Below, in pieces: positions 16,442-59,506 of a DNA stretch of 64,000 nt. A program made the translations under genes and the position numbers. Below the pieces are notes generated by a model that saw only the letters and a list, made by a program, of their open reading frames with translations, was not told the origin of the DNA and made no database searches. How positions within the stretch are numbered: position 1 is the first letter of the stretch; the number at the start of each line of letters is the position of its first letter. Source of the stretch: Candidatus Doudnabacteria bacterium (GTDB lineage: Bacteria; Patescibacteriota; Doudnabacteria; UBA920); NCBI GenBank assembly GCA_963768175.1, contig CAVYGQ010000001.1, positions 702,305 through 766,304 on the forward strand, given 5' to 3'.

Positions 16442-17614
16442 ATGGATAAAAAACAAACCATTGTCTCCGGAATCAGGGCCAGCGGCAAATTACACGTTGG
16501 CAATTACCTGGGCGCGCTTAAGCAGTTTGTAGAGCTGCAAAACGACGAAACCAAAAACTGTTATTTTTTTATCGCTGATTTGCACGGCCTAACCACCCCT
16601 TTTGAGCCAAAAGAGCTGGCCAATACGATTTTGGACGTTACGGCCAGTTACTTAGCCGCCGGGATTAATCCAGAAAAAACAACTTTCTTTTTGCAAAGCC
16701 AGGTTTTGGAACATGCCCAGCTGGCCTGGATTTTTAATTGCATCACGCCGCTTGGAGAACTTTATCGGATGACACAGTTTAAAGTTAAAGGGAACCTAAA
16801 AACAAAAATCTCTGATCGTACTCCTTCGCTTTCCAAACCAGAAACTATAGGTAATCAAATTGTTGATAATTCTGGCTATTTCGAAAAATTATCAGAAAAA
16901 TATTTTGTAGAGTTTATCGACAAAGAAGGAAATCGTTCAGAAAATAAAATTGCTTCAGGATTTATAAAAACTCTTTATGACGAACTCTCAGATACTTACA
17001 AAGTTAACGCCGGACTTTTGACTTACCCCGCCTTAATGGCCGCGGATATTTTAATGTATAAAGCAGATGCGGTACCCGTGGGCGATGACCAGGTCCAGCA
17101 CGTGGAGCTGGCAAGGGTAGTAGCCAGGAAGTTTAACCACAAATTCGGCAAAACTTTTCCGGAACCCAAAACTTTTTTAACCAAACCGTTGCGGATTATG
17201 TCCTTAACCGACCCGACCAAAAAAATGAGCAAAACCGGGGACGAGGCTCTGCTGTTGGACGATTCACCCGCGGAAATAACGCGCAAGCTTAAAAAAGCTT
17301 TAACCGCAAGCGAGGCCGGCAAAAAATCCCCGGGGGAAGAAAATCTGATGCTGCTTTTGTCCCATTTTGGGAAAACTGATGAAATTGCTCATTTTATGGA
17401 GACGCAGGCAGCCGGAACTTTAAAATACAGCGAACTTAAAGAAGCCTTAGCCAAAGATATCAGTAATTATTTTGCCGATTTTCGTGAAAAGAAAAAAGAG
17501 CTTCTGGCAAGGCCGGAATATCTGGCGCAAGTCCTGGCCGAAGGCTCGCGCAAGGCCGCGGCAGTAGCCAAAGAAACATTGTTGGAAGTCAAACAAAAAA
17601 TCGGACTGCTCTAG
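16442..17614 (+). CDS. trpS: Tryptophanyl-tRNA synthetase
   Basis: HIGH-type motif GKLHVGNYLG and KMSKT(G). 390 aa, carrying a ~60-aa insertion (KVKGNLKTKISDRTPSL...SDTYKVNAG) relative to typical bacterial TrpRS. Confidence 0.9.
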   Translation: MDKKQTIVSGIRASGKLHVGNYLGALKQFVELQNDETKNCYFFIADLHGLTTPFEPKELANTILDVTASYLAAGINPEKTTFFLQSQVLEHAQLAWIFNCITPLGELYRMTQFKVKGNLKTKISDRTPSLSKPETIGNQIVDNSGYFEKLSEKYFVEFIDKEGNRSENKIASGFIKTLYDELSDTYKVNAGLLTYPALMAADILMYKADAVPVGDDQVQHVELARVVARKFNHKFGKTFPEPKTFLTKPLRIMSLTDPTKKMSKTGDEALLLDDSPAEITRKLKKALTASEAGKKSPGEENLMLLLSHFGKTDEIAHFMETQAAGTLKYSELKEALAKDISNYFADFREKKKELLARPEYLAQVLAEGSRKAAAVAKETLLEVKQKIGLL

Positions 17615-52849: not shown

Positions 52850-53254
52850 TTAATGATTTAACTTCCTAAATTTTTTTACAAAAATTGTTTGTTCATTTTT
52901 TAATTCTGTCAGAGGTACCTTTTTAACTTTTAAGGGATTAAGCTCATTCCCCTTATTAACAGGAACAAGGTGCACATGAACATGGGCTACTCCAAAACCT
53001 TCAATAGCTAAGCCTATACGCTTAGCCCCAGAAATGGATTTTAATATTCGTGCAATCTTTTTTACCAGCACTAATAATTTAATGTACTGGACATCAGGCA
53101 GGCTAAAAACATCAGGCGCGTGCTTTTTCGGGATAAGCAACAAATGTCCGGGGTTTATAGGATTGGCATCAAGAAGGAGTATAAAATTTTTGTCCTCCCA
53201 AACTTTTAAACTCTCTACCCTATTTTCTATAATATCGCAAAAAATACATTTCAT
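52850..53254 (-). CDS. HIT-family (histidine triad) protein
   Basis: MKCIFCDI..., HVHVHLVP triad. Confidence 0.8.
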   Translation of the reverse strand: MKCIFCDIIENRVESLKVWEDKNFILLLDANPINPGHLLLIPKKHAPDVFSLPDVQYIKLLVLVKKIARILKSISGAKRIGLAIEGFGVAHVHVHLVPVNKGNELNPLKVKKVPLTELKNEQTIFVKKFRKLNH

Positions 53255-53265
53255 ACTTAAATTTT

Positions 53266-53300
53266 AACATATTTCGTTGTAAAAAAAAAGGAATAACCGC
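53266..53300 (-). terminator. Rho-independent terminator closing the GC-rich six-gene operon
   Basis: aggaataacc...ggttattcct hairpin followed on the minus strand by TTTTTTTTT. Confidence 0.55.
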
Positions 53301-53311
53301 GACCGAATGGG

Positions 53312-54223
53312 TTATTCCTTAAGCAAAACCAGTTGTTGTAACTGAAGCTGGATTCTTTTGTTAAAAGCCGTACTGATGTTTGGCCGTGAATGATATTCAC
53401 GCAAATGCAGCAAGGCTTGAAGAAGCCTGCCAAACACGTATATGGCTTGTGCGTTCCTCCTTGAAAGCGAGAGCGTGGCGGCAACGGGCCCCAACGCGAA
53501 TTCGCGGAAACACAAAGGACTGTCTGTGGCCGCCGGAAACTCAAATACATCCTGGAGCACGCCGCCGAAACAGGCCAGGTCTACAATTGGCATTCCTGTA
53601 ACCATTTCTGGCGGGTCTGCAAATTTCAAGATGTCTTGTGAGGCGAAAATGTTCCAGGGTATAAAATCCCAGCTGGCGAAACAATACTCGGGCATATGCA
53701 GGGATTTCAGCAGTCTCTCAAGAGTGCGTTCAACCTGGTCCAAGGGCATGGAACCGCCGACTCCGGCAAAATCCCGGTAGATGCTTTTTACTGTCGCCAT
53801 TTCGAATTCCATGTATTGGTAGGCGTCGCTGCCCGTCCTCAGACTTTCTTTGTAGACCCGGAGAAGATTAACAGCGATGTGCGCACAGATACCTTCAGCG
53901 ACACTTCCGTTTCTAATTTGTGTGCCCAGATCCGTACCACAATCCTCCATCAATATGTAGCCACAAGTGTCACTCAATTCAAACGCGGTGATGTGGGGAA
54001 TGAAGAAGCCAAGCCCTAAAGATGCCAGCTTCTCGTACCCCCGGATGTTTGCCGAGATTTCCCGGAAGGACCCCGGGTTGTCTGATGCTTTCAGAACCAA
54101 GCTTTGGTTCAGCCGGTCCCTAACCCTGAAAACAGATTTGCATCTGCGCCCGTGTTCGATTTTTTCAATCAGGGTCAAATTGAGACGCTCAATAAGATCG
54201 TCTATCACGGTTTTCCCCTCCAA
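53312..54223 (-). CDS. Protein-kinase-like fold phosphotransferase (APH/choline-kinase-like)
   Basis: Beta3 Lys context LVLKAS, hinge ILMEDCG, catalytic loop SWDFIPWN (D...N), metal-binding IVDLACFG. GC ~58%. Confidence 0.45.
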   Translation of the reverse strand: MEGKTVIDDLIERLNLTLIEKIEHGRRCKSVFRVRDRLNQSLVLKASDNPGSFREISANIRGYEKLASLGLGFFIPHITAFELSDTCGYILMEDCGTDLGTQIRNGSVAEGICAHIAVNLLRVYKESLRTGSDAYQYMEFEMATVKSIYRDFAGVGGSMPLDQVERTLERLLKSLHMPEYCFASWDFIPWNIFASQDILKFADPPEMVTGMPIVDLACFGGVLQDVFEFPAATDSPLCFREFALGPVAATLSLSRRNAQAIYVFGRLLQALLHLREYHSRPNISTAFNKRIQLQLQQLVLLKE

Positions 54224-54296
54224 AGGAATGCGGAGGCGGCACTGATGACTTGCGTCGATTTGAGCCGCCTCCTGGGTTGTTTAGATTGGCTTCACT

Positions 54297-55502
54297 CTAC
54301 TGGACATGAAGCCGAAACCACGCCCGCTTACCAACCTGCAAGATATCTCCTTCGGTTGGCGTCAGGCTTTGTGCCGGGTTGGTGATTTTCGCGCCGTTCA
54401 GCGTAACCCCTCCATGTTGGAAGAGTTGCCGAAGTTCGGCACTGCTCTTTTGGCTGCCAAAGAACAGCCGCACAATACTGAGCACGGTTTGGTCTTTGGC
54501 TTCCGCGGTGACGCTGGGGATGTCTGCGGGGATTTGGCGTTGCGAGAACGTCTGGTCAAACCACTCGCGTTCTTCCCGGGCCACCTGTTTTCCGTGGTAC
54601 CGCTGGACAATGGCCACTGCTAGCCGTTTTTTGGCTTCAAGAGGGTCGGATGCGGCCAAACTCTCCAGCGCTGCCAGCTCCGTGTCCGGCACCTCCGTGT
54701 AGACTTGGAAGTAAGTCGAAATCAAGCTGTCGGGCAAGCGCATGGTTCTGCCGAATTTGTCGCGAGGCGAGTGGCCGAGGCCGATGTAGTTGTCCAAGCT
54801 CTTGCTTTGCTTGTCCCTGCCATCGATCCCGGACGTGATTCTAGTGGTCATGATAACCTGTGGCTGCTGGCCAAACTTTTCTTGGTAGAATCGCCCCAGC
54901 ATCTCGTTGAACAGCTGGTCGGAACCAATGATAGTCAAGTCAGAGCTAAGCGCGAAAGAGTTGTAGCCTTGAAGTACCGAGTAGACTAGTTCGTGCATGT
55001 AGATGTCAGAGTTCTCGGAGATGCGCCGCTGAAACATGTCGCGCGAAATCAAGCGGCTGTGAGTGACCAAGGACAATAGCTTCAGAAACTGCGCTGTCTT
55101 CATGTCCCCAAACCACTCGGAATTCCTCCTTACCTCCAACAGTTGCGAGTTGTCAAACCGCAGGACCATCTTCGCTTGCGTGATGAATTCCTTGGTATTC
55201 CGTTCGATTTCCTCGGCTGGAATGATGGGTCGTGTTTTGCTCTTCCCGGTAGGGTCGCCGATCTGCGTCGTAAAATCCCCGACCAGAAAGACAACCTTGT
55301 GCCCGAGATCTTGCAGCCTGCGCATCATCCACAAATTGACAGCGTGTCCGATGTGCAGGTACGGAGCAGTCACGTCCACACCATACTTAATGCGGAGCTT
55401 TTTGCCGCTGCGCAAGAGCGCCTTCCATTCCTCCAGAGAGAAAACCTCTTGTGTCGTTCTGGCGAATGCCAAATCTAGTTGCCTTATCTGTTGTTCGTTC
55501 AC
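54297..55502 (-). CDS. tyrS: Tyrosyl-tRNA synthetase (class I, with C-terminal S4 domain)
   Basis: PYLHIGHAVNL (HIGH), LVGDFTTQIGDPTGKS, LQGYNSFAL, IGSDQ, KQSKS/KFGRT (KMSKS region), C-terminal S4-like domain. Confidence 0.85.
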   Translation of the reverse strand: MNEQQIRQLDLAFARTTQEVFSLEEWKALLRSGKKLRIKYGVDVTAPYLHIGHAVNLWMMRRLQDLGHKVVFLVGDFTTQIGDPTGKSKTRPIIPAEEIERNTKEFITQAKMVLRFDNSQLLEVRRNSEWFGDMKTAQFLKLLSLVTHSRLISRDMFQRRISENSDIYMHELVYSVLQGYNSFALSSDLTIIGSDQLFNEMLGRFYQEKFGQQPQVIMTTRITSGIDGRDKQSKSLDNYIGLGHSPRDKFGRTMRLPDSLISTYFQVYTEVPDTELAALESLAASDPLEAKKRLAVAIVQRYHGKQVAREEREWFDQTFSQRQIPADIPSVTAEAKDQTVLSIVRLFFGSQKSSAELRQLFQHGGVTLNGAKITNPAQSLTPTEGDILQVGKRAWFRLHVQ

Positions 55503-56134
55503 AGGGATCCCTCCCGGGTTGCCAAAACTGTATTGATTTGCGAAATTTCACTGACGGTAACAATTTCCGATGATTTATGTTCTGCAACCAGTATGCATCT
55601 GTAACCTGCTACAAACGCTTCCTGTAAATCAATCCGAATGTCATCACCAATGACGCAAACCTCGGTAGGTATCAATCTGCGTGTCTGGGAGATGCCATGG
55701 TAGGCATCAATTTTTTTATCCTTACCCCAACTTGGCCCAGGAGCGCAAATTTCGGCGAACAAATCCCGAAGTCCCAAGGCGTCCAAAGCTCTTATTGCGT
55801 AGCTTCGGGGCGCTAAGGTTACCAGGAATCTATTCCCCTTTAAATTCTCCAAAGCGTGCCGCACGCACTCGTCTCTTACAAGAAACCGTTCGGGAGCAAG
55901 GCGGTCGAACACGCCTTGGTGGTAAGAGAGAGTACTGAGTTGGTATGCCCGTATTGCTTGTAGCGGGCTCGGATAGAGTTCCTGCAACTGCTCGTAGAAC
56001 CATTCCAAGCGATCATCGCTGATTTCCAACTGGCTTTGAAACCAGGCTTTGGACAACGATGACATGGCGCGATAAAGCGGATTGGCACGCGGGTACAGCG
56101 TGCCGTCCAGGTCGAAAATAAATGCTTTGAGCAT
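55499..56134 (-). CDS. HAD-superfamily hydrolase
   Basis: MLKAFIFDLDGTLY motif I; 211 aa. Confidence 0.8.
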   Translation of the reverse strand: MLKAFIFDLDGTLYPRANPLYRAMSSLSKAWFQSQLEISDDRLEWFYEQLQELYPSPLQAIRAYQLSTLSYHQGVFDRLAPERFLVRDECVRHALENLKGNRFLVTLAPRSYAIRALDALGLRDLFAEICAPGPSWGKDKKIDAYHGISQTRRLIPTEVCVIGDDIRIDLQEAFVAGYRCILVAEHKSSEIVTVSEISQINTVLATREGSL

Positions 56135-56136
56135 GG

Positions 56137-57135
56137 TTATTCCCCAGGCCTCAGCAGTATTTTCATGATGAATTCGGACTTTCGCTGAGCTGCTGCTAAA
56201 GCGTCCGAAAACTTGGATAGAGGGTAGCGATGGCTAATAAACGCATTCATGGTAGCTTGATGACCACCAATCATGGTTACGGCCATGCCGAACTCGTGGA
56301 ACGTATAAGCGTTTGAGCCTACTAGGCGAACTTCTTTGATGAAGAGGTCTCGAGCGACCAAGGGGTAGGTATAGCCGGCGCTAAAAACACCGAGCACGAC
56401 CACTGACCCCCCGGGCTTGGACATCTGTATAGCCTGGCTGAGAGTATTAGGCTGGGCTCTCCCCACCGTTTCGTACACAATATCGAAACTGCCCGGCGGG
56501 GATTCGGAAGTAAAGACCCGAGATCCCAATCCTTCAGCAAACCTTAAGTTTTCCGGATGGACTCCTTTAAGCCAAACGTTATGGCCTTGCTGCAAAAGAG
56601 CCCAGGAAAGCAGGCAGCCGACTGTCCCGTCGCCTATGACCAAACAATCTTTGGCGGACGGAAAGGTGCGGCCAAAACTGCACGCGTGCAGACACACCGC
56701 TAGGGGGTCTGCCAACACATAGGGTTCAATATCCAGAGAGGCCGGCAACAAGACGAGGTTTGTGAGCGGTGCATCCACATATTCCGCAAACGCCCCTCTG
56801 ATCGTGCGCCCGAGCGCCTGGCCTTGAATGCACAGATTGGTCATGCCGTTCTTGCACGCCTCGCACTCCCCGCAGGAAATAAGAGGCATGGCTGCCACTT
56901 GGTCACCTGTCTTGGCTTGGCTGCCCGTACCGTTGGTCGCGATGACAGTTCCCACAAATTCATGGCCAAGAATGATTGTATGTGACGTCGGAAGTTTGCC
57001 AGCTGACAACTTGGCAACATCAGTGCCGCACAAGCCGACAACAGCGACTTTGACTCTGGCCCACCGGGCCTTCAAAGCAGCTGCTTGCACTTCCACGTAC
57101 CCGATCCGACCGTTCAGAAAGGTCGCCGCTTTCAT
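56137..57135 (-). CDS. Zinc-dependent medium-chain dehydrogenase (threonine/sorbitol dehydrogenase-like)
   Basis: GHEFVGTV, structural-zinc CGECEACK, Rossmann GDGTVG. Confidence 0.85.
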   Translation of the reverse strand: MKAATFLNGRIGYVEVQAAALKARWARVKVAVVGLCGTDVAKLSAGKLPTSHTIILGHEFVGTVIATNGTGSQAKTGDQVAAMPLISCGECEACKNGMTNLCIQGQALGRTIRGAFAEYVDAPLTNLVLLPASLDIEPYVLADPLAVCLHACSFGRTFPSAKDCLVIGDGTVGCLLSWALLQQGHNVWLKGVHPENLRFAEGLGSRVFTSESPPGSFDIVYETVGRAQPNTLSQAIQMSKPGGSVVVLGVFSAGYTYPLVARDLFIKEVRLVGSNAYTFHEFGMAVTMIGGHQATMNAFISHRYPLSKFSDALAAAQRKSEFIMKILLRPGE

Positions 57136-58244
57136 TTGCTTTCTCCCATGATGGTTGCAAGGGCCTTTTGGCTCCCGCCGGTCGCGTCGATGAATTGCCT
57201 AAGTTTTTGGAGTCCGGTTTCGCTGCGGATTGTGTCTATGGCTAAGGCATAGCCTTGGCACAAATCCGCCGCCTTACTGGCCAAAACCAGAATGGCGGCC
57301 GCGTTGAGGGCAACCGTTTGCCCCCGCGGGCCGATTGCTTTTCCTGAGAGTACCTGAACCGACAGCTGGGCGTTCTCGATTAAGGAAAGCCCCGGCTGCA
57401 AATCGTCCGGTCCCGAACAGGAAGTCTGGGTCAGTGTGGTAGGAGAGAACTCCTCGATGGGTCCGGTTACGCCTTTCTCGATCCTGCCGAACCGGTTGCT
57501 GGAAAGCGTACTGAGCTCGTCGACATAGTGTATGTCGTCGCTGGTTGAGGTAACTACCATCACGTTCTTGTAACTGAGCATGCTGAATACTTCCAGTGCG
57601 AGTTTCAGATCGGGATGGGACAGCCCATAGAGAAGCGTTTCGCAGGCAACGGGGCTGATTATCGCCGGGAAGGCGAAACTCAGAGGCGTGGGTCCGAAGG
57701 CCTTGCCTCCGTAAACCCCGTCGAATTTCGGGATGGTGTCTTCGATCGAAAATATCCCGAATCCCGTCTGCTGTAAGACAGCGATCATCGCGTTGGTTTC
57801 CAGCAGGTTCACCCCGACCGTCTTGATGAGGTCGGTAGAACCGCCGATTGAAGAGGTCGCGGCCGAGCCCGTTTTGGCAACGAAAGCTCCGGCGGCGCTG
57901 GCAACAAAGCAAGCGGGAGTGGAAATGTTGAAAGTCTTCCATCCTTTTTTGCCGCTGCCGGCCACGCCGACGAGTTTCTCGTTGTGAGGCAGGTTCGGTT
58001 TGTACCGGGTCAGTCCGTCGATGTTCAGCGCGGTTCGTATCAAAGCTACAATCTCCTGAGAGGTGGGTCCCTTGACCATCAATCCCATCAGGAACGACCC
58101 GAGCTGCGCATCACGCGCTTTGACTTGGGGGCTTGTCAGAATCAGCTCAAACGCCCTTGTCACGAGGTCAAGGTCCACCGGCGCGCCGATGTTGAGCCGG
58201 TAAAAGACCTCGGCTATTTCGAGGTTGGGATTTTTCTGTTCCAC
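57132..58244 (-). CDS. Glycosyltransferase family 3 protein (anthranilate phosphoribosyltransferase TrpD-like / nucleoside phosphorylase fold)
   Basis: N-terminal helical domain ...AQLGSFLMGLMVKGPTSQEIVAL.... GT3 core GVAGSGKKGWKTFNISTPACFVASAAGAFVAKTGSAATSSIGGSTDL. Probable true start is GTG at 58244, preceded by AAAGGAG; the ORF-track start at 58394 overlaps the upstream gene. Confidence 0.65.
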   Translation of the reverse strand: MEQKNPNLEIAEVFYRLNIGAPVDLDLVTRAFELILTSPQVKARDAQLGSFLMGLMVKGPTSQEIVALIRTALNIDGLTRYKPNLPHNEKLVGVAGSGKKGWKTFNISTPACFVASAAGAFVAKTGSAATSSIGGSTDLIKTVGVNLLETNAMIAVLQQTGFGIFSIEDTIPKFDGVYGGKAFGPTPLSFAFPAIISPVACETLLYGLSHPDLKLALEVFSMLSYKNVMVVTSTSDDIHYVDELSTLSSNRFGRIEKGVTGPIEEFSPTTLTQTSCSGPDDLQPGLSLIENAQLSVQVLSGKAIGPRGQTVALNAAAILVLASKAADLCQGYALAIDTIRSETGLQKLRQFIDATGGSQKALATIMGESK

Positions 58245-58255
58245 TGGGCGCTCCT

Positions 58256-59314
58256 TTAGCTTTCCTTCCACAACTCGCAGAGCTGGAAAAGATGCTGGGC
58301 GTAGTCGAGCTTGATCGCGTGCCAGAGCTTGGACTGCTTGCGGCACTCCTCGTAGGCCTCTTTGATCCGGTCGTTGCCGTAAAGGCTTGCCCACGCAATC
58401 ATCTGGTAGATGACGTTGGTTTCCGGAAATTGCGTTACCACTTCTCCGTGCTCGATCAGGGTCTTGATCTGCTCGGCCGGCATGCCAACGCTGATACCGG
58501 AGTCGCCGAAGCTTTTGGCCATTTTCGGATGGCCGTTAAAGCCCCGCATCACTCCGGAGTACATGGCGGCGTAATGCTTGCCCTGAAACCATTCGGGGTG
58601 TTGCTCGGCTGCCCCTTTGACGGCGAGCCGGCCGAAATTGACGTACTTGTGCTCGTCTATCCCCAAAACCACCAGCACGGCTTTGAATCCGCCGTGGCTG
58701 AGAAGTTCGAGGAAGTCGGCGATCATGAGGTTGAGCGACAGCTTCCGCCGGTAGCTCATCAGAGGGTCGACCTTGCCGCTGCGGGAGTAAAAATCGTGCA
58801 TGTCTTCCTCGGCCGCATCGAACATCTCGTCCTGCATGTAGTGGCCGATGAGGTAGGCCAGCCGCAGGGTCGTCAGGGAATCGTACTGGTTCCGCAGTGA
58901 GTTGGGAGGCGCCTGATTGAACCCGAGGTTGAGAATAAACCTCCGGTAGCAATCAGCCAATTTGCGCGTGTAATCCAGCCCTTTGGATCTGCCGTTGTAG
59001 GCATCGAGGTCGCCCAGAACGATCTGAACGGGAATTCCGTTCCGTTGCAGGCGCAACACGCGCAGGATCTGCCCGAGAGTCCCGGCGTGGGGAACCCCGG
59101 ACATGCCGAAGCCCGTTGAGACGGTGACGTTTTGTCCGGCCTGGCTTGCTTCCGCAAATGCCCGGCCGTTCATATGACACAGCCAGAGCCGCTGCAAATC
59201 CTCCCTGGCCATTTGGCCCAGGGAGAAAGTGATCTGCTCGAACTCCAGCGGGCTGTAGCCGAACTCTGCCATCACTTTTCCGTAATACTCGGGACCGAAG
59301 TCCACATCACTCAT
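58256..59314 (-). CDS. Class I aminoacyl-tRNA-synthetase paralog, TrpRS-like, with degenerate HIGH motif (HAGT)
   Basis: TVSTGFGMSGVPHAGTLGQIL...IVLGDLDAYNG aligns to the TrpRS HIGH-region layout. KMAKS in place of KMSKS. 352 aa. Confidence 0.55.
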   Translation of the reverse strand: MSDVDFGPEYYGKVMAEFGYSPLEFEQITFSLGQMAREDLQRLWLCHMNGRAFAEASQAGQNVTVSTGFGMSGVPHAGTLGQILRVLRLQRNGIPVQIVLGDLDAYNGRSKGLDYTRKLADCYRRFILNLGFNQAPPNSLRNQYDSLTTLRLAYLIGHYMQDEMFDAAEEDMHDFYSRSGKVDPLMSYRRKLSLNLMIADFLELLSHGGFKAVLVVLGIDEHKYVNFGRLAVKGAAEQHPEWFQGKHYAAMYSGVMRGFNGHPKMAKSFGDSGISVGMPAEQIKTLIEHGEVVTQFPETNVIYQMIAWASLYGNDRIKEAYEECRKQSKLWHAIKLDYAQHLFQLCELWKES

Positions 59315-59506
59315 AGAACTTTCCTCCTCAGGAATGGAACGTACTTCATAGCAGGCTTTCTGCCTACTAAAAAGCCCCTTCTATACACTCAATAAATTGG
59401 GCTTTTTAATGTGCAGACGGGCTTGTTTTTGACCCTAAATTATAATGAATTTTAGAAATTATTACAAGTGCCTAAATACTTCAAGTAATTCCCATGGTAT
59501 GATTAG

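What the first reader, a model, noticed from the sequence alone, without database searches (positions are those of the whole stretch)
53266..59506. GC-rich six-gene operon built around two class-I aaRS(-like) genes plus small-molecule enzymes; candidate acquired pathway or resistance island
Layout:
- Six tightly packed minus-strand genes, with 4-nt overlaps or 11-nt gaps.
- Their own upstream AT-rich promoter region and their own downstream terminator.
- ~58% GC against ~46% in the flanks.

Content:
- ePK-like phosphotransferase.
- Bona fide TyrRS.
- HAD hydrolase.
- Zn-dependent MDR dehydrogenase.
- TrpD-family GT3 phosphoribosyltransferase or nucleoside-phosphorylase-fold enzyme.
- TrpRS-like paralog whose HIGH motif is degraded to HAGT (KMAKS retained).

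Interpretation:
- A canonical low-GC trpS already exists at 16442-17614, so the TrpRS-like gene is an extra copy.
- Freestanding aaRS paralogs next to kinase, phosphatase, dehydrogenase and PRTase genes are the signature of aminoacyl-tRNA-dependent or aminoacyl-nucleoside natural-product pathways, or of self-resistance aaRS copies.
- This combination is not a described system that I recognise.
Basis: partly seen in the sequence, partly recalled or inferred. Interest (0 to 1): 0.75.

Follow-up and report, generated by a model that had tools for sequence, protein, structure and literature searches.

The report
Mobile tyrosine-linked biosynthetic cassette with own TyrRS
The six genes are one copy of an undescribed gene cassette that moves between distant bacteria and archaea, pairing a novel Trp/Tyr-tRNA-synthetase-like enzyme and sugar-phosphate enzymes with its own tyrosyl-tRNA synthetase; it most likely makes a tyrosine-linked antimetabolite.

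Summary
Six intact minus-strand genes lie at 53312-59314, with a promoter-like site, a structured leader and a hairpin+T9 terminator. GC is 54.1% against 46.6% elsewhere, not 58%.

The TrpRS-like protein (here "WRSL") is not a decayed trpS. It belongs to a small, sharply separate class-Ic aaRS-like family of about 112 clusters at 50% identity. HxGT, KMSKS and an LMxADF pocket helix are conserved.

WRSL + TrpD-fold GT3 + Zn-ADH + HAD + a type-2 TyrRS recur together across phyla:
- CPR bacteria, DPANN archaea and about 55 actinomycete species.
- Clostridium beijerinckii.
- A B. thuringiensis plasmid, where the cassette is bracketed by IS elements and carries an MFS transporter.

GT3-WRSL, HAD-WRSL and HAD-TyrRS fusion proteins exist. 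In CPR relatives the cassette is also 5-11 GC points richer than its flanks, and no flanking genes are shared.

Best reading (about 0.5): a laterally spread pathway for a tyrosine-linked, ribose- or nucleotide-derived antimetabolite resembling an aminoacyl-adenylate mimic. WRSL would be the ATP-dependent ligase and TyrRS the producer's protective copy.

Rivals are an AcmD/AcmF-style Tyr-tRNA-dependent transfer, tyrosine homeostasis, and a conflict system. The product is unknown. I found no description of the cassette in databases or papers.

The parts
59439..59467 (-). Promoter-like site, TTGTAA-17 nt-TATAAT, upstream of the operon.
   Evidence: One search gives 10 of 12 matches. This is a consensus match only, and the number of such sites in the region is no higher than in shuffles.
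59315..59435 (-). Structured 5' leader with an A-tract/stem/U-tract hairpin that looks like a terminator or attenuator, followed by a GAGGAGG Shine-Dalgarno.
   Evidence: MFE -38.6 kcal/mol, z = -4.08, 0 of 200 shuffles as stable. There is no Rfam match. It is not conserved in L004, L008, L009 or L010.
58256..59314 (-). WRSL: a class-Ic (Trp/Tyr) aaRS-like paralogue of 352 aa. It carries HAGT at residue 76, KMAKS at 264 and LMIADF at 196. It is the putative ATP-dependent amino-acid ligase.
   Evidence: Profile scores: PF00579 41 bits; TrpRS models far below cut-off, 52 against 451 and 26 against 177. Family and invariant residues. Structure: AF2 pLDDT 87.6; best structural matches are archaeal and human TrpRS at TM 0.68-0.71 and archaeal TyrRS at 0.62-0.68.
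57132..58244 (-). GT3 (TrpD-fold) enzyme of 370 aa, a putative phosphoribosyltransferase with a family-specific GSGKK motif.
   Evidence: Profile scores: PF00591 87 bits; TIGR01245 131 bits, below the 199 cut-off. Best PDB matches are TrpD at 83 bits. GTGGDG is replaced by GSGKK and KHGNR by KTGSA, while SS, GS.D and DE are kept. These features are conserved in 63 loci. Fusions to WRSL exist.
56137..57135 (-). Zn-dependent MDR dehydrogenase of the polyol/threonine-dehydrogenase type, 332 aa.
   Evidence: PF08240 and PF00107; the best NCBIfam hits are L-idonate 5-DH, threonine 3-DH and galactitol-1-P 5-DH, all below cut-off. The sequence shows a structural-Zn Cys cluster (CGECEACKNGMTNLC) and GDGTVG. 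It sits in the cassette in 81 loci.
55499..56134 (-). HAD phosphatase of 211 aa, closest to pyrimidine 5'-nucleotidases.
   Evidence: PF00702; TIGR01993 65 bits, below the 143 cut-off. It has the DLDGT motif. Relatives carry HAD-TyrRS and HAD-WRSL fusions.
54297..55502 (-). Bacterial type-2 tyrosyl-tRNA synthetase of 401 aa with HIGH, KQSKS and an S4-like C-terminus. Its tyrosine-binding helix reads QGYNS where the consensus is QGYDS.
   Evidence: TIGR00234 275 bits, above the 114 cut-off. Best PDB matches are 1h3e at 267 bits and 6bqy. A TyrRS is linked to WRSL in 76 of 87 loci. The Asn181 codon AAC lies at 54960-54962; only 2 of the 120 closest homologues have Asn there.
53312..54223 (-). 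APH/ePK-like phosphotransferase of 303 aa with a TTG start. It is lineage-specific: other lineages carry P-loop kinases in its place.
   Evidence: There is no direct Pfam or NCBIfam hit. The L009 homologue, 47-49% identical, hits PF01636 APH at 26 bits, above 23.2. P-loop kinases occur in L001, L024 and Streptomyces loci.
53281..53318 (-). Intrinsic terminator: GGAATAACC, an 11-nt loop, GGTTATTCC, then T9. It overlaps the stop codon of the kinase gene.
   Evidence: Read directly from the sequence. The scan missed it because the loop is longer than 8 nt.
52850..53254 (-). HIT-family (HinT-like) nucleotide hydrolase of 134 aa. It is a recurrent neighbour of the cassette but a separate transcription unit here, and its GC is 34%.
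   Evidence: HinT model at 52 bits. Adjacent to the cassette in about 14-15 CPR/DPANN loci; 58% identical in L009. GC value.

Best explanation
The block is one copy of a laterally mobile biosynthetic cassette. Its invariant core is WRSL + GT3 + Zn-ADH + HAD phosphatase + a type-2 TyrRS.

**Proposed mechanism.** All steps are inferred unless marked otherwise.
1. The TrpD-fold GT3 enzyme couples a phosphoribosyl donor (PRPP-type) to an acceptor.
2. The HAD phosphatase and the polyol-type dehydrogenase trim and redox-tailor the ribose-phosphate moiety. Kinases re-phosphorylate it: APH-like here, P-loop in other lineages. In other lineages a viperin-like radical-SAM enzyme, methyltransferases and glycosyltransferases decorate it further.
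3. WRSL keeps the class-I ATP-binding signatures and a Trp/Tyr-type pocket helix (this much is shown). It would activate an aromatic amino acid, most likely tyrosine or a tyrosine derivative. It would then join it to that ribose- or nucleotide-like scaffold, as MshC joins Cys to an amino sugar. The product would mimic tyrosyl-adenylate.
4. The product is an antimetabolite aimed at TyrRS or at tyrosine incorporation. The cassette's own TyrRS protects the producer. HIT (an acyl-adenylate/phosphoramidate hydrolase type) and phosphorylation provide further self-protection or pro-drug handling.

In this CPR genome the cassette was acquired horizontally.
For: **Shown**
- WRSL, GT3, ADH and a TyrRS co-occur within a few kb in nearly all 87 loci, usually with a HAD phosphatase. 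The loci span CPR, DPANN, Actinomycetota, Acidobacteriota, Bacillus and Clostridium.
- Fusion proteins link the components: GT3-WRSL, HAD-WRSL and PRTase-like-WRSL, and HAD-TyrRS in at least 7 clusters.
- On B. thuringiensis plasmid pBMB172 the unit is WRSL-GT3-ADH-HAD-MFS-tyrS, lying between an IS6 transposase plus a recombinase on one side and an IS4 transposase on the other.
- In C. beijerinckii the cassette has an ABC transporter and is followed by an integrase and a resolvase.
- In Streptomyces it lies next to a transposase, SpdY and a relaxase.
- The cassette TyrRS is a foreign type or an extra copy in several hosts. It is type-2 in actinomycetes (214-224 bits to 1h3e/6bqy/6byq against 94 bits to Mycobacterium tuberculosis TyrRS 2jan). 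It is bacterial type-2 in DPANN, where a eukaryote/archaeal-type TyrRS sits beside it.
- DPANN and actinomycete cassette TyrRSs replace the Gln of the canonical QxYDS tyrosine-binding helix by Val or Met.
- The WRSL family is conserved and discrete, with invariant HxGT, KMSKS and LMxADF.
- Accessory genes across lineages are all nucleotide or ribose-phosphate enzymes: PRTases, an NDT-like protein, NUDIX, HIT, kinases, phosphatases and a viperin-like rSAM.
- The cassette's GC exceeds its flanks here and in CPR relatives L004, L009 and L010. No flank genes are shared.

**Precedents from the literature**
- SbzA (IleRS-like) in the IleRS inhibitor SB-203208, and AcmD/AcmF in ascamycin (PMC12945691).
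- Resistant second aaRS copies for mupirocin, indolmycin and albomycin (PMC9437257).
Against: - No product or activity is known, and every chemical step is inferred.
- The window has no exporter.
- The window-type TyrRS clade (60-68% identical) also occurs without the cassette, as an apparently ordinary TyrRS in Parcubacteria and Nitrospina. In this small genome it may therefore simply be the housekeeping enzyme.
- CPR and Bacillus cassette TyrRSs have a canonical active-site helix, giving no obvious resistance signature.
- A bacterial TyrRS in archaea would not be expected to charge archaeal tRNA-Tyr (established identity rules). This fits poorly with a simple replacement role.
- The GT3 enzyme has lost TrpD's GTGGD and KHGN motifs, so PRPP use is not assured.
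- WRSL+TyrRS pairs exist without GT3, ADH or HAD (L020, L022).
Confidence: 0.5

Rival explanations
1. The overall class is the same, but the mechanism is tRNA-dependent, as in AcmD/AcmF or SbzA. The cassette TyrRS would be a dedicated supplier of Tyr-tRNA(Tyr). WRSL would be an aminoacyl-tRNA-dependent transferase that moves tyrosine onto the ribose-derived acceptor.
For: - WRSL-TyrRS is the tightest pair. It persists even where GT3, ADH and HAD are absent (L020, L022).
- WRSL keeps a full-length aaRS architecture, including the C-terminal helical domain.
- HAD-TyrRS fusions suggest that TyrRS takes part in the pathway.
- A tRNA-Tyr gene lies inside the cassette in L024 and L026.
- Precedent: a canonical aaRS paired with an aaRS-like transferase (PMC12945691). 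SbzA keeps its HIGH- and KMSKS-like motifs.
Against: - WRSL's ATP-binding motifs are invariant, whereas AcmF has lost most of the residues needed for ATP binding and alanine activation (PMC12945691).
- WRSL is mildly acidic: pI about 6.4 and a C-terminal domain net charge of about -2.4. The tRNA-binding TrpRS and TyrRS of the same window have pI 8.5 and 9.3. This evidence is weak.
- In DPANN a bacterial TyrRS would lack a matching bacterial tRNA-Tyr, and none was found near those loci.
Confidence: 0.2
2. The pathway is not an antibiotic pathway but one that consumes tyrosine, for example to make a cell-surface glycoconjugate or a cofactor-like molecule. The linked TyrRS would safeguard tRNA-Tyr charging, or sense tyrosine while it is drained, as proposed for tyrS in tyramine (tdc) operons.
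For: - GT4 and GT2 glycosyltransferases accompany the cassette in about 49 loci.
- L091 couples two TyrRS genes to a PLP decarboxylase, a HAD-GT4 fusion, an APH kinase and a HAD.
- The cassette is common in tiny CPR and DPANN genomes, where antibiotic clusters are rare (own knowledge).
- CPR cassette TyrRSs look canonical.
Against: - The cassette is sporadic and mobile: it sits on a plasmid between IS elements and in integrative-element-like contexts.
- It is linked to exporters in Firmicutes.
- DPANN and actinomycete copies carry active-site substitutions.
- No T-box or other tyrosine-sensing leader was found.
Confidence: 0.12
3. The cassette is a conflict or anti-phage system that produces a modified nucleotide or aminoacyl-nucleotide on infection. 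TyrRS and HIT would be its effector-handling or self-protection parts.
For: - The cassette's radical-SAM enzyme (family 5, in 32 loci) resembles prokaryotic viperins in the two members scanned. L001 matches pVip at E 3e-19 over nearly the whole model, and L093 at 4e-11.
- Kinases accompany it, as in the 'viperins associated with kinases' model.
- HIT matches the Thoeris ThsC HIT model.
- Neighbours often include restriction-modification, TOTE, Abi, Fic or PemK genes.
Against: - None of the six window proteins hits any PADLOC model.
- The window copy lacks the viperin-like gene.
- The link to exporters, and the adjacent NRPS in L003, suggest secreted chemistry.
- Mobile-element and defence-island neighbours are also typical for any cargo gene.
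Confidence: 0.08
4. The arrangement is ordinary. A housekeeping tyrS happens to lie next to a decaying trpS duplicate and unrelated metabolic genes, with no shared function.
For: - TyrRS is bona fide.
- Relatives of it occur in housekeeping contexts.
- The GC shift is moderate, and other parts of the window reach 52-58% in 1-kb windows.
Against: - WRSL is a conserved family with about 50 invariant positions, not a pseudogene.
- The gene set is conserved across domains and is fused in several combinations.
- Flanking genes are never shared.
Confidence: 0.02

Closest known systems
SB-203208 / altemicidin (sbz) pathway: the class-I IleRS-like enzyme SbzA, making an IleRS inhibitor (PMC12945691)
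   Same: - A class-I aaRS paralogue with retained signature motifs attaches the cognate amino acid to a small-molecule scaffold.
- The product mimics the aminoacyl-adenylate of the aaRS type encoded in or near the cluster.
- That cluster was found by resistance-gene logic.
   Different: - The synthetase family differs: IleRS-like there, Trp/Tyr class Ic here.
- The scaffold enzymes differ: no GT3, ADH or HAD set in sbz.
- SbzA uses Ile-tRNA, whereas WRSL's donor is unknown.
- The cassette here is short, mobile and found across domains.
Ascamycin AcmD (AlaRS) + AcmF (AlaRS-like transferase) (PMC12945691)
   Same: A canonical aaRS and a paralogue of the same aaRS class are encoded together in a nucleoside-type pathway.
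   Different: - AcmD and AcmF are class II.
- AcmF is truncated and lacks most of the residues needed for ATP binding and alanine activation.
- WRSL is full length with invariant HxGT and KMSKS.
MshC (CysRS-like Cys:GlcN-Ins ligase of mycothiol synthesis; from established knowledge)
   Same: MshC is a class-I aaRS paralogue that keeps its ATP-dependent adenylation chemistry and transfers the amino acid to a sugar-derived acceptor instead of tRNA. This is the mechanism I consider most likely for WRSL.
   Different: - The subclass and the amino acid differ.
- MshC works in primary thiol metabolism, is vertically inherited in Actinobacteria and has no linked aaRS.
Self-resistance aaRS copies in aaRS-inhibitor producers (mupirocin IleRS, indolmycin TrpRS, albomycin SerRS; PMC9437257)
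   Same: A second, evolutionarily distinct aaRS of the targeted type is encoded with the pathway. Here this applies to a type-2 TyrRS in actinomycetes, a bacterial TyrRS in DPANN and a plasmid tyrS in Bacillus.
   Different: - I found no TyrRS-based example in the literature searched.
- Resistance is untested.
- In the CPR host the copy may be the only TyrRS.
HisZ-HisG (aaRS paralogue + phosphoribosyltransferase complex; from established knowledge, cited in PMC9437257)
   Same: An aaRS paralogue is genetically, and in relatives physically by fusion, coupled to a PRPP-type transferase.
   Different: - HisZ has lost catalysis and acts as a regulatory subunit in histidine synthesis.
- WRSL keeps its catalytic motifs.
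- No Trp or His pathway genes are present.
TrpD, anthranilate phosphoribosyltransferase
   Same: The fold is the same (PF00591/PF02885), TrpD structures are the best PDB matches, and the SS, GS.D and DE metal/pyrophosphate motifs are retained.
   Different: - It scores below the TIGR01245 cut-off.
- GTGGDG is replaced by GSGKK and KHGNR by K-T-G-S.
- There is no trp operon context.
SB-219383 (a tyrosine-containing TyrRS inhibitor from Micromonospora; PMC7916415, PMC13271063)
   Same: It is a natural TyrRS inhibitor described as a tyrosine analogue with a sugar-like 7-oxa-2-azabicyclo[3.2.1]octane core (PMC7916415, PMC13271063). That it is a tyrosyl dipeptide comes from my own recollection. This is the kind of product the cassette could make. 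The cassette occurs in Micromonosporaceae (L036, L038, L053, L058).
   Different: Its gene cluster was not found in the literature available to me. The link is a lead only.

Membership tests
Canonical tryptophanyl-tRNA synthetase | Scores above the curated TrpRS model cut-offs. | tested here: not met
   TIGR00233 scores 25.6 against 176.75, and NF008925 52.3 against 451. With the family profile no canonical TrpRS or TyrRS cluster is reached beyond 257 hits in 1.84 billion.
Canonical tryptophanyl-tRNA synthetase | HIGH and KMSKS signatures. | tested here: met
   HAGT and KMAKS are present. HxGT and KM[SA]KS are conserved family-wide. Some genuine TrpRSs also deviate from HIGH (own knowledge), so this feature does not discriminate.
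Canonical tryptophanyl-tRNA synthetase | Charges tRNA-Trp and is the genome's TrpRS. | tested here: not met
   A canonical trpS lies at 16442-17614. Charging itself is not testable with these tools.
Cyclodipeptide synthases | A catalytic domain of about 230-300 aa without ATP-binding signatures or an anticodon domain, matching the CDPS Pfam model. | tested here: not met
   The protein is 352 aa and full length, aligning over about 367 columns with TrpRS structures. KMSKS is retained, and only PF00579 is hit.
aaRS-inhibitor gene cluster with a self-resistant aaRS copy | The producer carries an additional, divergent copy of the target aaRS inside the cluster. | tested here: inconclusive
   The feature is met in relatives. 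These are the plasmid tyrS in Bacillus, a bacterial plus a native-type TyrRS in Woesearchaeota, and a type-2 copy in actinomycetes. For this window's genome only 64 kb is visible and no second TyrRS lies in it.
aaRS-inhibitor gene cluster with a self-resistant aaRS copy | Biosynthetic enzymes and an exporter are co-located. | tested here: inconclusive
   The enzymes are present. Exporters occur in the Bacillus and Clostridium versions but not in the window.
aaRS-inhibitor gene cluster with a self-resistant aaRS copy | The product inhibits the cognate aaRS while the cluster copy is insensitive. | not testable with these tools
   This needs metabolite isolation and enzyme assays.
aa-tRNA-dependent aaRS-like transferases (AcmF/SbzA type) | An aaRS paralogue is encoded with, or depends on, a canonical aaRS of the same class. 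| tested here: met
   WRSL is adjacent to TyrRS in 76 of 87 loci.
aa-tRNA-dependent aaRS-like transferases (AcmF/SbzA type) | Uses aminoacyl-tRNA rather than ATP plus free amino acid. | not testable with these tools
   The conserved ATP motifs and the acidic C-terminal domain argue weakly against it.
TrpD (anthranilate phosphoribosyltransferase) | Equivalog score, GTGGDG and KHGNR substrate motifs, and a trp operon context. | tested here: not met
   The score is 130.7, below 199.05. The motifs are GSGKK and KTGSA instead. No trp genes are adjacent.
GT3 / TrpD-fold superfamily | PF00591 and PF02885 domains. | tested here: met
   Scores are 87.3 and 27.1 bits, both above cut-off.
HisZ/HisG-type regulatory aaRS-paralogue/PRT complex | The paralogue has lost its catalytic motifs and the pair serves an amino-acid biosynthetic pathway. 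| tested here: not met
   The catalytic motifs are invariant, and the 87 loci examined showed no amino-acid pathway context. Only the coupling and fusion to a PRT is shared.
Tyramine (tdc) operon-type tyrS | tyrS lies next to a tyrosine decarboxylase and an antiporter, with a T-box leader. | tested here: not met
   The window has no decarboxylase or antiporter and no T-box. A related arrangement exists in L091.
Known anti-phage defence systems (PADLOC) | The proteins match defence-system models. | tested here: not met
   None of the six genes has a hit. Only the neighbouring HIT matches (ThsC-type), and in other loci the rSAM matches pVip-type models.

The most novel reading that the evidence does not exclude
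WRSL is a genuine, previously unrecognised aminoacyl-tRNA synthetase for a non-canonical aromatic amino acid that the neighbouring GT3, ADH and HAD enzymes synthesise. Examples would be a ribosylated or ribitylated tyrosine derivative. On this reading the cassette is a portable 'make-and-charge' module analogous to pylSBCD, spread across bacteria and archaea. The linked TyrRS would keep normal Tyr decoding apart from the new substrate.

The evidence does not exclude this:
- WRSL has the full aaRS architecture with intact ATP motifs.
- It has an anticodon-domain-like C-terminus.
- Its pocket has a small residue where archaeal TyrRS has Tyr32.
- A tRNA-Tyr gene lies inside some cassettes.
Probability: 0.03. 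Interest if true: 0.95.

Novelty: new variant of a known kind. Interest (0 to 1): 0.72.

Why it matters
If the main reading is right, three things follow.

- **A new pathway type.** This would be the first gene-level description of a natural pathway aimed at tyrosyl-tRNA synthetase. It is built around a new class-Ic aaRS-like ligase family. A four-enzyme minimal version on a Bacillus plasmid could be expressed directly. It might also be the unknown gene cluster of SB-219383-type inhibitors.
- **Chemical weaponry in tiny genomes.** The same short cassette moves between Patescibacteria, DPANN archaea, Firmicutes and actinomycetes. That would give ultra-small episymbionts, usually thought to lack specialised metabolism, a portable chemical weapon or a tyrosine-linked metabolite.
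- **A new family either way.** Even if the product is not an antibiotic, WRSL and its fused GT3 partner define an uncharacterised enzyme pair with a clear experimental entry point.

Tried and rejected
**Searches that returned nothing**
- Exact look-up of the window's own WRSL, and of its 100% identical database copy P0001 on a 949-kb contig, returned no contig.
- No T-box or riboswitch is upstream: Rfam at gathering threshold and at E ≤ 1 found nothing. The stable leader hairpin is not conserved in relatives.
- No dedicated tRNA lies in or near the window cassette. The odd 'tRNA-???' in L032 reads as an intron-containing archaeal tRNA with anticodon CGU, not a tRNA-Tyr.
- PADLOC gave no hit for the six genes.
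- Nine completed literature searches found no description of the cassette or of any TyrRS-based self-resistance. A tenth query failed on syntax.

**Readings rejected**
- A pseudogenised second trpS: rejected by family conservation.
- A cyclodipeptide synthase: rejected by length, motifs and fold coverage.
- A HisZ-like regulatory subunit: rejected because the catalytic motifs are invariant and no amino-acid pathway is present.
- A single 'cassette-specific resistant TyrRS clade': not supported. Cassette TyrRSs are polyphyletic within type 2. The DPANN copy scores 367 bits to PDB 6bqy against about 251 bits to the window copy. The Bacillus copy is 59% identical to the window copy. The window-type clade also occurs in housekeeping contexts.

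**Technical note**
- A GC3 filter for gene calling in the actinomycete loci was too strict. It was replaced by ORF lists plus Pfam.

Full report

Yes. Six intact ORFs lie head to tail on the minus strand.
- A 352-aa Trp/Tyr-RS-like protein, here called WRSL, at 58256-59314.
- A TrpD-fold GT3 protein at 57132-58244. The mechanical ORF extends to 58394. The GTG at 58244 is preceded by AAGGAG, gives the 370 aa seen in homologues, and leaves an 11-nt gap.
- A Zn-MDR dehydrogenase at 56137-57135, overlapping GT3 by 4 nt.
- A HAD phosphatase at 55499-56134.
- A TyrRS at 54297-55502, overlapping HAD by 4 nt.
- After a 73-nt gap, a 303-aa ORF at 53312-54223.

Pfam and NCBIfam confirm every domain call except the last. 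The 303-aa ORF has no direct hit. Its homologue in L009, 47-49% identical, passes the Pfam APH threshold, so 'ePK-like phosphotransferase' is reasonable.

A promoter-like site lies at 59439-59467 on the minus strand. The 121-nt leader folds unusually well, with z = -4.1. A clean hairpin plus T9 terminator at 53281-53318 overlaps the stop codon of the last gene; the simple scan missed it because of its 11-nt loop.

The GC of the block is 54.1% against 46.6% for the rest. That makes it the highest 6-kb window in the 64 kb, about 3 sd above the others, but it is not 58%. The canonical trpS at 16442-17614 is genuine, and no other TyrRS lies in the window.

**2. What is the TrpRS-like gene?**

It is not a decaying trpS.
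- Its homologues form a compact family of 347 hits, 46-82% identical among the best 120. They come from Patescibacteria, DPANN and Asgard archaea and a Bacillus.
- About 50 positions are invariant, including T-G-x-G-x-x-G-x-P-H-x-G-T, G-D-L-D-A-x-N-G, a pocket helix L-M-x-A-D-F and P-K-M-x-K-S.
- A profile of the family finds only 112 clusters at E ≤ 1e-30, and 257 at E ≤ 1e-3, among 1.84 billion representatives. It is therefore sharply separated from the true TrpRS and TyrRS families.
- By sequence profile the nearest solved structures are archaeal TyrRS (E 3e-10) and archaeal TrpRS (1e-8).
- A confident AlphaFold model (pLDDT 87.6) superposes over its full length on archaeal and human TrpRS (TM 0.68-0.71) and on archaeal TyrRS (0.62-0.68), at 16-20% identity.

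'HAGT' is thus the family's own conserved variant of HIGH. The enzyme most likely still binds ATP and an aromatic amino-acid-like substrate. That last point is an inference from the motifs.

**3. Gene neighbourhood elsewhere**

This is the decisive evidence. I used look-ups of homologues, a scan of one genome per species, tblastn of the window proteins against all loci and de novo ORF-family clustering. WRSL, GT3, ADH and a TyrRS lie together in nearly all 87 loci, usually with a HAD phosphatase. The loci cover:
- CPR lineages: Magasanik-, Kaiser-, Moran-, Dojkabacteria and Saccharimonadia.
- DPANN: Woese-, Nano- and Aenigmatarchaeota.
- About 55 actinomycete species: Streptomyces, Saccharopolyspora spinosa, Nocardia, Nocardiopsis, Dactylosporangium, Amycolatopsis, Jiangella and Micromonosporaceae.
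- An acidobacterium and a melainabacterium.

None of the window's other genes is found in the 20-kb flanks of any locus, apart from HIT.

Three contexts are especially telling.
- On B. thuringiensis plasmid pBMB172 the unit is WRSL-GT3-ADH-HAD-MFS-tyrS, lying between an IS6 transposase plus a recombinase on one side and an IS4 transposase on the other.
- In Clostridium beijerinckii the unit follows an ABC transporter and is followed by an integrase and a resolvase.
- In Streptomyces sp. GBA 94-10 it is followed by a transposase, SpdY and a relaxase.

Fusion proteins tie the parts together.
- HAD-TyrRS occurs in L004 and in at least 7 clusters.
- GT3-WRSL occurs as P0326, P0350 and P0317.
- HAD-WRSL occurs as P0249.
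- WRSL is also fused to a long N-terminal region carrying a type-I-PRTase-like LLDDNIMSGMT motif, in P0272 and P0303.

Accessory genes vary by lineage but share a theme of nucleotide and ribose-phosphate chemistry.
- Kinases: APH-like here, P-loop or AAA_33 elsewhere.
- A ComF-like PRTase, a nucleoside-deoxyribosyltransferase-like protein, NUDIX and HIT.
- SAM methyltransferases, and GT2 and GT4 glycosyltransferases.
- A radical-SAM enzyme in 32 loci. The two members scanned (L001, L093) resemble prokaryotic viperins.

A variant in L020 and L022 pairs WRSL and TyrRS with LuxE/LuxC-like acid-reducing enzymes instead of GT3, ADH and HAD.

**4. The TyrRS**

The window's enzyme is a bona fide type-2 bacterial TyrRS: TIGR00234 at 275 bits, and best PDB match T. 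thermophilus 1h3e.

Cassette TyrRSs are type-2 in every lineage, including hosts where that type is foreign.
- The S. spinosa copy scores 214-224 bits to type-2 structures against 94 bits to the mycobacterial enzyme.
- The DPANN copies are bacterial.
- In Woesearchaeota they sit immediately beside a eukaryote/archaeal-type TyrRS that scores 339 bits to human TyrRS, so two TyrRS genes coexist there.

DPANN and actinomycete cassette copies replace the Gln of the canonical Q-x-Y-D-S tyrosine-binding helix by Val or Met. CPR and Bacillus copies are canonical.

The copies are not one clade.
- The Bacillus plasmid TyrRS is 59% identical to the window's, whereas WRSL is only 47% identical.
- The DPANN copy is closer to PDB 6bqy than to the window's.

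This pattern suggests repeated recruitment or replacement of a TyrRS by the cassette.

Against over-reading this, TyrRSs 62-68% identical to the window's occur without the cassette in Parcubacteria and Nitrospina. In this roughly 0.95-Mb genome the gene may therefore double as the housekeeping enzyme.

Curiously, the window's own copy reads Q-G-Y-N-S. The Asp that binds the tyrosine hydroxyl is Asn (codon at 54960-54962). Only 2 of the 120 closest homologues share this state, and the 87%-identical nearest relative does not.

**5. Composition and acquisition**

The cassette is GC-richer than its flanks here (+7.5 points). The same holds in the closest CPR relatives: L004 +5, L009 +11 and L010 +8. 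In DPANN and actinomycetes it matches the host. Together with the unshared flanks and the mobile-element contexts, this supports lateral spread within this CPR group. The adjacent HIT gene is only 34% GC, yet a HIT gene neighbours the cassette in about 15 CPR/DPANN loci.

**6. Mechanism**

The following is shown:
- a conserved, fused and co-transferred set of WRSL, a TrpD-fold transferase, a polyol-type dehydrogenase, a phosphatase and a TyrRS;
- catalytic signatures intact in all of them.

The following is inferred.
1. GT3 attaches a phosphoribosyl unit to an acceptor. Its TrpD metal/pyrophosphate motifs SS, GS.D and DE are kept, but GTGGDG is replaced by GSGKK and KHGNR by K-T-G-S, so the substrates differ.
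2. HAD, ADH and kinases tailor the sugar phosphate.
3. WRSL adenylates an aromatic amino acid and ligates it to that scaffold, in the manner of MshC.

The product would resemble tyrosyl-adenylate. The linked TyrRS, the exporters in Firmicutes, HIT and phosphorylation would protect the producer.

Literature precedents exist.
- SbzA is an IleRS-like enzyme in the pathway to the IleRS inhibitor SB-203208 (PMC12945691).
- AcmD/AcmF are an AlaRS plus an AlaRS-like transferase in ascamycin biosynthesis (PMC12945691).
- Resistant second aaRS copies are known in mupirocin, indolmycin and albomycin producers (PMC9437257).

SB-219383, a tyrosine-containing TyrRS inhibitor from Micromonospora with a sugar-like bicyclic core (PMC7916415, PMC13271063), is the kind of product expected. 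I found no published cluster for it, so this is only a lead.

I put about 0.5 on this reading. The rivals are:
- an AcmD/AcmF-style tRNA-dependent version, 0.2;
- a non-antibiotic tyrosine-consuming pathway with a homeostatic TyrRS, 0.12 (compare L091);
- a conflict or antiviral nucleotide system, 0.08;
- chance adjacency, 0.02.

**7. Novelty**

All database names for the family are 'hypothetical protein', automatic 'tryptophanyl-tRNA synthetase' or 'nucleotidyl transferase family protein'. Literature searches found nothing on the cassette or on TyrRS-based self-resistance; the library does not cover all journals.

The principle is known: an aaRS paralogue used as a ligase, together with a cluster-encoded aaRS. 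The enzyme family, its GT3 partner, the TyrRS link and the cross-domain mobile distribution appear to be undescribed. I therefore rate it a new variant of a known kind, with high interest because a six-gene plasmid version offers a direct experimental test.

Noticed in passing
window 54960-54962 (TyrRS residue 181), and residue 175: The window's TyrRS reads VYSVLQGYNSF where 115 of the 120 closest homologues have QGYDS, typically preceded by YP as in the four nearest homologues checked. The Asp that binds the tyrosine hydroxyl in characterised TyrRSs is Asn here. The nearest relative (87% identical) has Asp. This could be altered specificity, relaxed constraint or a sequencing error.
   Followed up: partly
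window 59315-59435 (minus strand): The operon's 5' leader folds into a very stable terminator-like hairpin (A-tract/stem/U-tract; -38.6 kcal/mol, z = -4.1). It lies between the promoter-like site and the Shine-Dalgarno. There is no Rfam match and it is not conserved in CPR relatives. It may be a lineage-specific attenuator.
   Followed up: partly
window 54224-54296 (minus strand): A 9-bp inverted repeat, GGAGGCGGC...GCCGCCTCC, lies in the 73-nt gap between tyrS and the kinase gene, with no T-run after it. The kinase ORF starts with TTG and has no obvious Shine-Dalgarno. Its expression may be separately controlled.
   Followed up: no
window 52850-53254: The HIT gene beside the cassette is only 34% GC, against 54% for the cassette and 47% for the genome. 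Even so, a HIT gene neighbours the cassette in about 15 CPR/DPANN loci, and it matches a Thoeris ThsC-type HIT model.
   Followed up: partly
window 16442-17614: The canonical trpS is 390 aa and matches the 328-position TrpRS model in two stretches. It therefore carries an insertion of roughly 60 residues.
   Followed up: no
L011 7701-9974 (also L012-L014, L017, L028, L029): Woesearchaeota carry a bacterial type-2 TyrRS (about 403 aa) and a eukaryote/archaeal-type TyrRS (337 aa) side by side, directly upstream of WRSL. The 337-aa protein scores 339 bits to human TyrRS, and its HIGH-equivalent motif reads SIAY.
   Followed up: partly
L001 11058-12066; L093 9108-10004: Many cassettes (32 loci) include a radical-SAM enzyme of about 298 aa. 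The two members scanned (L001, L093) resemble prokaryotic viperins (pVip E 3e-19 in L001). In L001 it is preceded by a 48-aa ORF and accompanied by a P-loop protein, echoing 'viperins associated with kinases'.
   Followed up: partly
L091 6628-15122: A different TyrRS-centred cluster lies on a 621-kb contig. It has two TyrRS genes (68% and 35% identical to the window's), a PLP-dependent decarboxylase, a HAD-GT4 fusion, an APH kinase and a HAD. It sits just upstream of pheST.
   Followed up: partly
L020 7481-13171; L022 6458-13473: In this variant WRSL and TyrRS are paired with LuxE-like (AMP-binding) and LuxC-like (aldehyde dehydrogenase) enzymes instead of GT3, ADH and HAD. L022 adds an Fe-ADH and L020 a nucleoside-deoxyribosyltransferase-like protein. 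L022 is followed by Fic and a TOTE conflict-system primase-helicase.
   Followed up: partly
L024 15849-15934; L026 15850-15935: A bacterial tRNA-Tyr(GTA) gene lies inside the cassette of the Saccharibacteria- and Dojkabacteria-labelled MAG loci L024 and L026, between a ComF-like PRTase and the downstream ORF that grouped with TyrRS.
   Followed up: no
L003 5491-12487: In Bacillus pseudomycoides the four-gene core is followed by an MFS transporter, a large NRPS and a phosphopantetheinyl transferase. A radical-SAM/SPASM gene lies upstream.
   Followed up: no
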